In this document: one piece after another, positions 23,319 to 23,510 of the stretch
Numbering within the stretch: the first letter of the stretch is position 1
Layout of the letters: every line of letters starts with the position of its first letter
From: Eledone cirrhosa
Taxonomy: Eukaryota
DNA length: 64,000 bases
NCBI GenBank assembly: GCA_964016885.1
Contig: OZ024741.1
Coordinates: 381,734,001-381,798,000 of the forward strand
Reading direction: 5' to 3'
Position numbers and translations under genes: made by a program
Notes under the pieces: model-generated
The model's input: the letters and a program-made list of their open reading frames with translations, nothing else
What the model was told of the DNA's origin: nothing
Databases searched by the model: none

Positions 23319-23510
23319 ATATAGATGAGATTCTACAGGACTAGAACTGTTTCATTCATTAGAAATCATCAGGAATCAGATTCCTGATGATTTCTAATGA
23401 ATGAAACAGTTCTAGTCCTGTAGAATCTCATCTATATTAAAACTGTTATACTCTGCTATGTATTGAGTACCTTACTTACTGTGGTTACCTCCGATTCAAC
23501 CCGGAATAAC
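23319..23510. mobile_element. Small PLE-type non-autonomous element: 119-bp perfect palindrome (23319-23437) + 73-bp tail, between (TA)n tracts
   Basis: The arms are exact reverse complements about A23378. A near-identical copy lies at 59287-59478. Confidence 0.8.
23378..23428 (+). ncRNA. Minimal type I hammerhead ribozyme, with a mirror copy on the minus strand at 23328-23378
   Basis: agattc-CTGATGA-tttc taat gaat-GAAA-cag ttctagtc ctg-TA-gaatct. Stem I is 6 bp, stem III is ACAG/CTGT, and the cleavage triplet is GUA. The U10.1-U11.1 pair is non-canonical. Confidence 0.7.

What the first reader, a model, noticed from the sequence alone, without database searches (positions are those of the whole stretch)
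23319..23510. Mobile 119-bp perfect palindrome made of two back-to-back hammerheads
Seen: a perfect hairpin with 59-bp arms and a 1-nt centre. Each arm reads outward as a type I HHR (GUA site) on opposite strands, and the inversion point lies exactly at the 5' strand of stem I. A 73-bp tail follows. Inference: transcription from either direction encodes an HHR, but the full hairpin would sequester it unless transcription or processing starts at the centre. It could therefore act as a self-inhibited ribozyme, a dsRNA/siRNA/ADAR substrate or a cruciform. Both flanks are also mirror-like: caaaa(CA)n(TA)n on the left and (TA)n(TG)nttttg on the right.
Basis: partly seen in the sequence, partly recalled or inferred. 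Interest (0 to 1): 0.75.

Follow-up and report, generated by a model that had tools for sequence, protein, structure and literature searches.

The report
Head-to-head stub of a Penelope retrotransposon
This palindrome is one of about three thousand tiny mirror-image insertions left by a Penelope-type jumping gene, and their shared break point suggests each was likely made by copying the capped front end of the element's RNA twice, so it is likely a by-product that records how the element copies itself, not a ribozyme switch.

Summary
The 119-bp palindrome, both hammerhead (HHR) motifs and the 73-bp tail are real. They are not a mobile unit with a fixed junction. They are the pLTR end of a Hydra-clade Penelope-like element (PLE); a parent copy with a 713-aa RT/GIY-YIG ORF matches the tailed arm at 98.6%. 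Junctions do pile up at one boundary: the palindrome's centre A, 30 nt downstream of a conserved TATA box. Arms starting there mostly gain an extra G (79 of 100 non-C starts), and there is no peak at the HHR cut site. Best reading: target-primed cDNAs run off the capped 5' end of uncleaved sense RNA and two are joined head to head in (TA)n; snap-back of one cDNA is the main rival. The architecture is published; I did not find the cap/start-site reading in print, but this scan already reported it on other DNA, including this genome. No RNA data were available.

The parts
23319..23377 (-). Short (tailless) arm: parent positions about +2 to +60, inverted; outer end merges with (TA)n
   Evidence: 100% to parent L073 over 59 nt
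23378..23510 (+). Tailed arm: parent positions +1 to +133 (HHR plus tail = start of the parent's 5' leader before the ORF)
   Evidence: 98.6% over 140 nt to L073
23378..23378 (+). Centre A = first base of stem I = inferred transcription start (+1); in the parent a TATA box lies 30 nt upstream, absent here
   Evidence: TATA at -30 in 57 of 75 loci; start site itself inferred
23378..23428 (+). Type I HHR motif: stem I 23378-83/23423-28, core 23384-90, stem II 23391-402 with U.U first pair, stem III 23406-21, predicted cut after 23422
   Evidence: sequence; stem I covariation; cleavage untested
23329..23377 (-). Mirror HHR motif, 5-bp stem I, predicted cut between 23334 and 23333
   Evidence: sequence symmetry
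23438..23510 (+). One-sided PLE tail, ending at the inferred distal RT start site
   Evidence: full tail on one arm in 79 of 81 palindromes by script; PMC8557442, PMC11167929
23190..23323 (.). Left target flank (CA)n(TA)n
   Evidence: not an element feature
23512..23564 (.). Right target flank (TA)n(TG)n
   Evidence: (TA)n on both sides in 65 of 81 palindromes
59287..59478 (+). Second copy, same junction, one mismatch
59012..59115 (-). Third copy, inverted, same junction, no tail; one arm stops near the HHR cut site

Best explanation
This is a promoterless head-to-head insertion of two short copies of the hammerhead-bearing end of a Hydra-clade Penelope-like element in a (TA)n repeat, likely made when both nicked target strands primed reverse transcription on the same capped RNA and the two cDNAs that ran off its 5' end were joined. 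Shown: parentage, target, one-sided tail, variable but sharply bounded junctions, TATA at -30, extra G. Inferred: (1) the pLTR promoter starts RNA at the first base of HHR stem I; (2) the RT/GIY-YIG protein nicks both strands of (TA)n and starts at two internal sites, about +60 to +71 and about +133; (3) RT reads through the uncut HHR, copies the cap as an extra C and stops; (4) the two cDNA 3' ends anneal or template-jump through 0-4 nt of complementarity; (5) the product has no promoter and would bury its HHR in a hairpin if read through, so it is likely a dead end.
For: Parent: L073 has HHR+tail, a 713-aa ORF, about 3 kb of 3' UTR, TATA and a second HHR; ORF carries RWR, DKT, YRDD, CxCx5C, CxxC and CxH, the Hydra marks in PMC8557442 section 11. 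Boundary: palindromes by inner gap 31-60: 555, 61-90: 2,943, 91-120: 225; only 15 of the 50 listed in the 91-120 bin hold upstream parent sequence (by eye). In 100 consecutive HHR arms on C1, 27 were classed as running upstream (about 30 by eye) and the rest stop near +1. TATA at -30 in 57 of 75 loci and -29 to -33 in 72 of 75. Extra G: 79 G, 11 T, 10 A among the first 100 of 2,065 non-C starts; 10 of 43 G-arms by script (11 by eye) are solo inserts after unrelated flank; the extra base also appears on 11 of 50 listed palindromes of a sister subfamily where stem I would template T (by eye; several ambiguous). Untemplated G marks capped RNA in L1 (PMC4859970). No cut-site peak: 97 palindromes, 1 of 50 listed flush at the cut. 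Two first strands: both tailed and tailless solos carry the G; L236 and L242 have it on both arms; the farther-reaching arm is tailless 18, tailed 16, equal 6 of 40; 6 of 50 sister junctions are zero-spacer overlaps at a self-complementary 4-mer. One RNA source: loop II is the same on both arms in 37 of 37 parsed (3 of 40 unparsed), random expectation 0.43. In vitro a Poseidon PLE nicks and extends both strands and has two internal RT starts that bound the tail (PMC11167929).
Against: No RNA, CAGE or cleavage data: the start site and cap are inferred from DNA only. The query copy itself has no extra G. Many extra-C junctions are ambiguous because the C could come from the other arm by microhomology. 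Arm concordance fits snap-back or later gene conversion equally well. 30 of 30 examined ORF-proximal copies (41 in the genome) carry sequence upstream of +1 and none starts at +1, which a simple capped-mRNA template does not predict. Three copies with the same 10%-frequency junction lie within 36 kb of this window, against about one palindrome per Mb, so some copies are re-copied locally and not made anew. Samples are the first-listed matches on C1-C6 and exact-match patterns favour young copies. Pfam GIY-YIG hit is below cut-off (E 0.012) and no RT profile hit; no tree was built.
Confidence: 0.72

Rival explanations
1. Same parent and same capped start, but one cDNA only: it runs off the cap, snaps back on itself to prime the second strand, and the hairpin tip is later trimmed or opened.
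For: Arm concordance 37 of 37; microhomology at many asymmetric junctions; snap-back after full-length cDNA is described for R2 (PMC11371274 passages).
Against: Either arm can be the longer (18/16/6); extra G on both arms in L236 and L242 and on tailless solos; 0-1-nt spacers cannot form a direct fold-back loop.
Confidence: 0.17
2. The boundary is an RT stall or processing site at the HHR's 5' edge, or self-priming on an antisense transcript (proposed in PMC3846280), not a capped start.
For: The boundary coincides with the end of stem I; three G-class junctions use the stem I complement as overlap (L220, two in L241); no RNA data.
Against: TATA fixed at -30 across diverged subfamilies; extra G in solos and in a subfamily whose stem I would template T; about 30% of arms read through the site.
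Confidence: 0.07
3. The palindrome is a mobile unit or a selected RNA device in its own right (self-inhibited ribozyme, siRNA or ADAR substrate, cruciform).
For: All 40 scored best hits are 98-100% full-length copies; three same-junction copies cluster in this window; the hairpin is very stable.
Against: Best hits are selected for identity; in unselected lists the junction varies (5 of 50 exact) and the exact one recurs in three loop variants; left ends vary; no promoter; no conserved flank.
Confidence: 0.03
4. Assembly artefact from fold-back reads.
For: No contig of the four runs laid spans the palindrome.
Against: Thousands of copies with a one-sided tail, a common boundary, private mismatches between arms and non-mirrored unique flanks.
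Confidence: 0.01

Closest known systems
Hydra clade of C-terminal-EN Penelope-like elements (Craig et al. 2021, PMC8557442; passages and section 11 read, supplements not seen)
   Same: RW(K/R), DKT, CxCx5C, CxxC/CxH motifs; canonical HHR; (TA)n targets; partial tandems; inverted 5'-truncated copy; one-sided tail.
   Different: Element is about 6 kb with a long microsatellite-rich 3' UTR (published ones are generally under 3 kb); tail is 62-73 nt rather than 30-40; the dominant product is a 130-200-bp stub bounded at +1.
Adineta vaga Penelope insertions with inverted pLTRs (Arkhipova et al. 2013, PMC3846280; passages read)
   Same: Head-to-head palindromes at the inverted junction, shorter inverted pLTR, tail, TATA and Inr-like motif in the pLTR.
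   Different: That paper proposed self-priming on an antisense template; the extra G here points to a capped sense template.
Poseidon PLE of Anolis in vitro (Frangieh et al. 2024, PMC11167929; parts 1-2 of 4 read)
   Same: Both strands nicked and extended, AT-rich target, two internal RT starts bounding the tail, uncleaved RNA as template.
   Different: Different clade; its ORF starts inside the HHR; inverted junctions and cap copying were not in the parts read.
PLE hammerheads and non-LTR retrozymes (Cervera and de la Pena 2014, PMC4209133, part 1 of 4 and passages; bioRxiv 10.64898/2026.07.22.740005, part 1 of 5)
   Same: Type I HHR in pLTRs; opposite-strand HHR pairs 100-700 bp apart already noted in Schistosoma; pLTR-derived short repeats.
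   Different: Here stem III has 4 bp (not minimal), the pair abuts directly, and the unit is inverted, not a head-to-tail tandem.

Membership tests
EN+ Penelope-like element insertion | Linked to an ORF with RT and C-terminal GIY-YIG | tested here: met
   L073 ORF 713 aa with YRDD and a weak GIY-YIG hit; 1,403 homologs at E<=1e-10, one annotated PF01541
EN+ Penelope-like element insertion | pLTR partial tandem with HHR | tested here: met
   HHR at both ends of L073; 41 ORF-proximal copies, 30 of 30 examined with upstream pLTR sequence
EN+ Penelope-like element insertion | Inverted 5'-truncated copy and one-sided tail | tested here: met
   79 of 81 palindromes with one tail by script; L020 has two by eye
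Hydra clade | RWK, DKT, CxCx5C, CxxC/CxH motifs | tested here: met
   All present in P0001 (RWR for RWK); in 98-118 of 120 listed homologs
Hydra clade | (TA)n targeting | tested here: met
   (TA)n on both sides 65, one side 13, neither 3 of 81
Hydra clade | Phylogenetic placement with reference Hydra RTs | not tested
   No reference set fetched; no tree built
Type I hammerhead ribozyme | Consensus core and three stems | tested here: met
   Core intact; stem I pairs covary A-T/C-G 20/17 and A-T/G-C 34/7 of 43 haplotypes
Type I hammerhead ribozyme | Watson-Crick pair 10.1-11.1 | tested here: not met
   U.U in 95 of 100; natural U.U variants exist and are the best-tolerated mispair (PMC3088659 passage)
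Type I hammerhead ribozyme | Self-cleavage | not testable with these tools
   No assay; HHR fold is only near the MFE of the isolated arm (-5.3 vs -5.6); no insertion peak at the cut site
Non-LTR retrozyme | Head-to-tail tandem units each with an HHR | tested here: not met
   Unit is head-to-head
MITE-like non-autonomous unit with fixed structure | Uniform internal junction and ends across copies | tested here: not met
   5 of 50 exact junctions; left ends vary

The most novel reading that the evidence does not exclude
PLE replication uses two templates. Capped linear mRNA, whose start is placed on the first base of HHR stem I, is primed twice near its 5' end and yields 60-133-nt strong-stop-like cDNAs that fuse head to head. 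Long and partial-tandem copies come from a cap-free circular or multimeric RNA, which is why none of 30 ORF-proximal copies begins at +1. The stubs would then be a genome-wide record that settles template strand, start site and the origin of PLE inverted repeats.
Probability: 0.35. Interest if true: 0.7.

Novelty: new variant of a known kind. Interest (0 to 1): 0.4.

Why it matters
How PLEs build their tandem and inverted insertions is named as open in PMC8557442. Thousands of young junctions here give sharp predictions: sense capped template, start at stem I, uncleaved HHR, two first strands from one RNA. These can be tested with CAGE and the existing in vitro PLE system. The locus itself is likely ordinary transposon debris. 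In a species with heavy RNA editing such hairpins could add dsRNA load, but that was not tested.

Tried and rejected
Fixed junction or master palindrome: rejected. Mirror flanks as part of the element: rejected, 1 of 81; my first test of this was faulty (it missed the query) and was redone. Cleaved RNA as template: no peak at the cut site. Extra base templated by stem I: not the main source. U.U as decay of this copy: rejected. A distal extension of stem I in the parent: plausible by eye, but my three trial pair registers gave 7, 38 and 6 of 43 paired and constrained folding added no helix; left open. My early label 'Neptune' was dropped after reading the clade motifs. Expression: no RNA holder listed. 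Four contig runs laid; none spans the palindrome, so no long-read confirmation. NCBIfam and PDB sequence searches gave nothing useful. Unconstrained folds of single arms were no better than shuffles (z about 0). Literature searches that did not show the cap/start-site reading: (listings only), plus 48 and 70 for L1 and R2 precedents. Subscription papers and the supplements of PMC8557442 (Hydra HHR list, which may include this family) were not seen.

Full report
Observation. The palindrome is as described: arms 23319-23377 and 23379-23437, 59 nt, fully complementary, 1-nt centre. Each arm reads outward as a type I HHR with intact core, U.U at 10.1/11.1, a 4-bp stem III and a GUA site. Rfam did not list an HHR family at this locus at E<=1. 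The window holds two more copies, 59287-59478 and 59012-59115, with the same junction. The window's genome is 3.0 Gb in 1,796 contigs; all 40 scored hits of 1,171 candidates were 98-100% full-length copies.

Parent. A loose HHR pattern has 27,075 matches and 0 for the reversed control. Many arms continue upstream into a longer element. L073 is a near-complete copy: HHR and tail, a 713-aa ORF, about 3 kb of microsatellite-rich 3' UTR, a TATA box and a second HHR. The query's tailed arm matches it at 98.6% over 140 nt. The protein has YRDD, a weak GIY-YIG hit (E 0.012, below cut-off), 1,403 homologs, and the motifs given for the Hydra clade in PMC8557442 section 11. That paper describes an adjacent inverted 5'-truncated copy and a one-sided tail as typical PLE architecture; PMC3846280 describes palindromes at such junctions; PMC4209133 noted opposite-strand HHR pairs. 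So the shape is known.

The junction is not fixed. With anchors outside both HHRs, palindromes number 555, 2,943 and 225 for inner gaps 31-60, 61-90 and 91-120. Of 50 listed in the main bin, 5 have the query's junction, with three different loop-II variants. The tail is on one arm in 79 of 81 palindromes by script; L020 has two by eye; (TA)n flanks both sides in 65 of 81; mirror (TA)n(TG)n flanks occur only at the query.

But the junctions share a boundary. In 40 of the 50 listed (the ones fetched), the farther arm ends between -1 and +3 of the centre A in 34 (this sample is conditional on the bin). Only 15 of 50 listed in the next bin contain upstream parent sequence (by eye). In an unselected run of 100 HHR arms on C1, the script classed 27 as extending upstream, 57 as inverted junctions and 16 as solo or other; by eye about 30 extend upstream and a few 'inverted' ones are solos. 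The pattern cannot see arms cut beyond +7. In arms that do extend, a TATA box sits at -30 in 57 of 75 loci, across subfamilies whose spacer and stem I differ. Among arms whose base before +1 is not the parental C (2,065), the first 100 have 79 G, 11 T, 10 A. Of 43 G-arms in 40 fetched loci, 32 are head-to-head, 10 solo and 1 upstream by script; solos are both tailed and tailless, and two loci have the G on both arms. A sister subfamily (130 palindromes) has the same boundary, and 11 of 50 listed show the extra base although stem I would template T; several of these are ambiguous. Untemplated 5' G is taken as evidence of cap copying in L1 (PMC4859970). There is no peak at the HHR cut site (97 palindromes, 1 of 50 flush). 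I infer a capped, sense, uncleaved template that starts at the first base of stem I.

How two arms arise. Both arms share the loop-II variant in 37 of 37 parsed cases against 0.43 expected by chance, so they come from one source. Either arm can reach farther (18/16/6), both can carry the G, and spacers of 0-1 nt are common, which fits two first-strand cDNAs joined end to end better than a fold-back. PMC11167929 showed a PLE protein nicking and extending both strands and starting at two internal sites that bound the tail, with uncleaved RNA as template. Snap-back, described for R2 (PMC11371274), remains the main rival.

Results against the simple reading. None of 30 examined ORF-proximal copies (41 in the genome) starts at +1. 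Long copies therefore probably use another template, circular or multimeric as proposed in PMC4209133; this is inference, and the copies are not independent. The query has no extra G. Three same-junction copies within 36 kb suggest local re-copying of some stubs.

The ribozyme. Stem I covaries at two pairs across 43 haplotypes (stem II was fixed by the pattern). U.U is kept in 95 of 100 arms when not fixed, and natural U.U hammerheads are known (PMC3088659), so activity is possible but untested. In a read-through transcript the antisense arm comes first and the hairpin (-95.9 kcal/mol) far outweighs the HHR fold (-5.3). The stub lacks the TATA box. No RNA holder was listed.

Novelty. The element and architecture are of a known kind. 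My searches did not show the cap/start-site boundary in print. I stated this reading before the first look-up (which returned nothing); a later look-up showed that other agents of this scan reached it on other DNA, twice in this genome. Those notes are not independent support. Verdict: real feature, likely dead-end PLE stub; interest 0.4 for the testable mechanism.

Noticed in passing
window 29553-30855: A second, unrelated HHR-bearing repeat: about 470-bp head-to-tail units plus an inverted partial copy between (TA)n runs; three type I HHRs with long stem II and minimal stem III (HH9 matches at 29830-29903, 30108-30177, 30575-30647, below gathering score). Looks like a PLE pLTR or retrozyme array.
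   Followed up: partly
window 2-1984: Broken Hydra-like PLE ORF of another family (34-40% to P0001); a further RT fragment at 4198-4380.
   Followed up: partly
window 59012-59478 and 23319-23510: Three stubs with the same junction within 36 kb; the flank of the 59012 copy resembles the query's left flank. Other close pairs with shared rare junctions: L113/L114 (312 kb apart) and two in L241. Suggests local re-copying; unexplained.
   Followed up: partly
L190-L219: 30 of 30 ORF-proximal HHR copies carry upstream pLTR sequence and none starts at +1, unlike short copies; hints at a circular or multimeric template for long copies.
   Followed up: partly
L073 and L062: The parent's 3' UTR is about 3 kb of compound (TG)/(TA) microsatellite carried as part of the element, so this PLE may spread microsatellites and its own target.
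   Followed up: no
L020: Rare stub with the full tail on both arms, about 270-bp palindrome.
   Followed up: no
window 33410-33497, 41608-42789, 38970-41366: Other inverted repeats, one centred on (TA)n.
   Followed up: no
window 45481-48890 and 17510-20438: Long minus-strand ORFs that look like fragments of other non-LTR retrotransposons (by eye, not scanned).
   Followed up: no
window 5424-5534, 24830-25039, 33572-33764, 34254-34438, 35176-35314, 63301-63499: A roughly 190-bp SINE-like repeat with many copies in the window.
   Followed up: no
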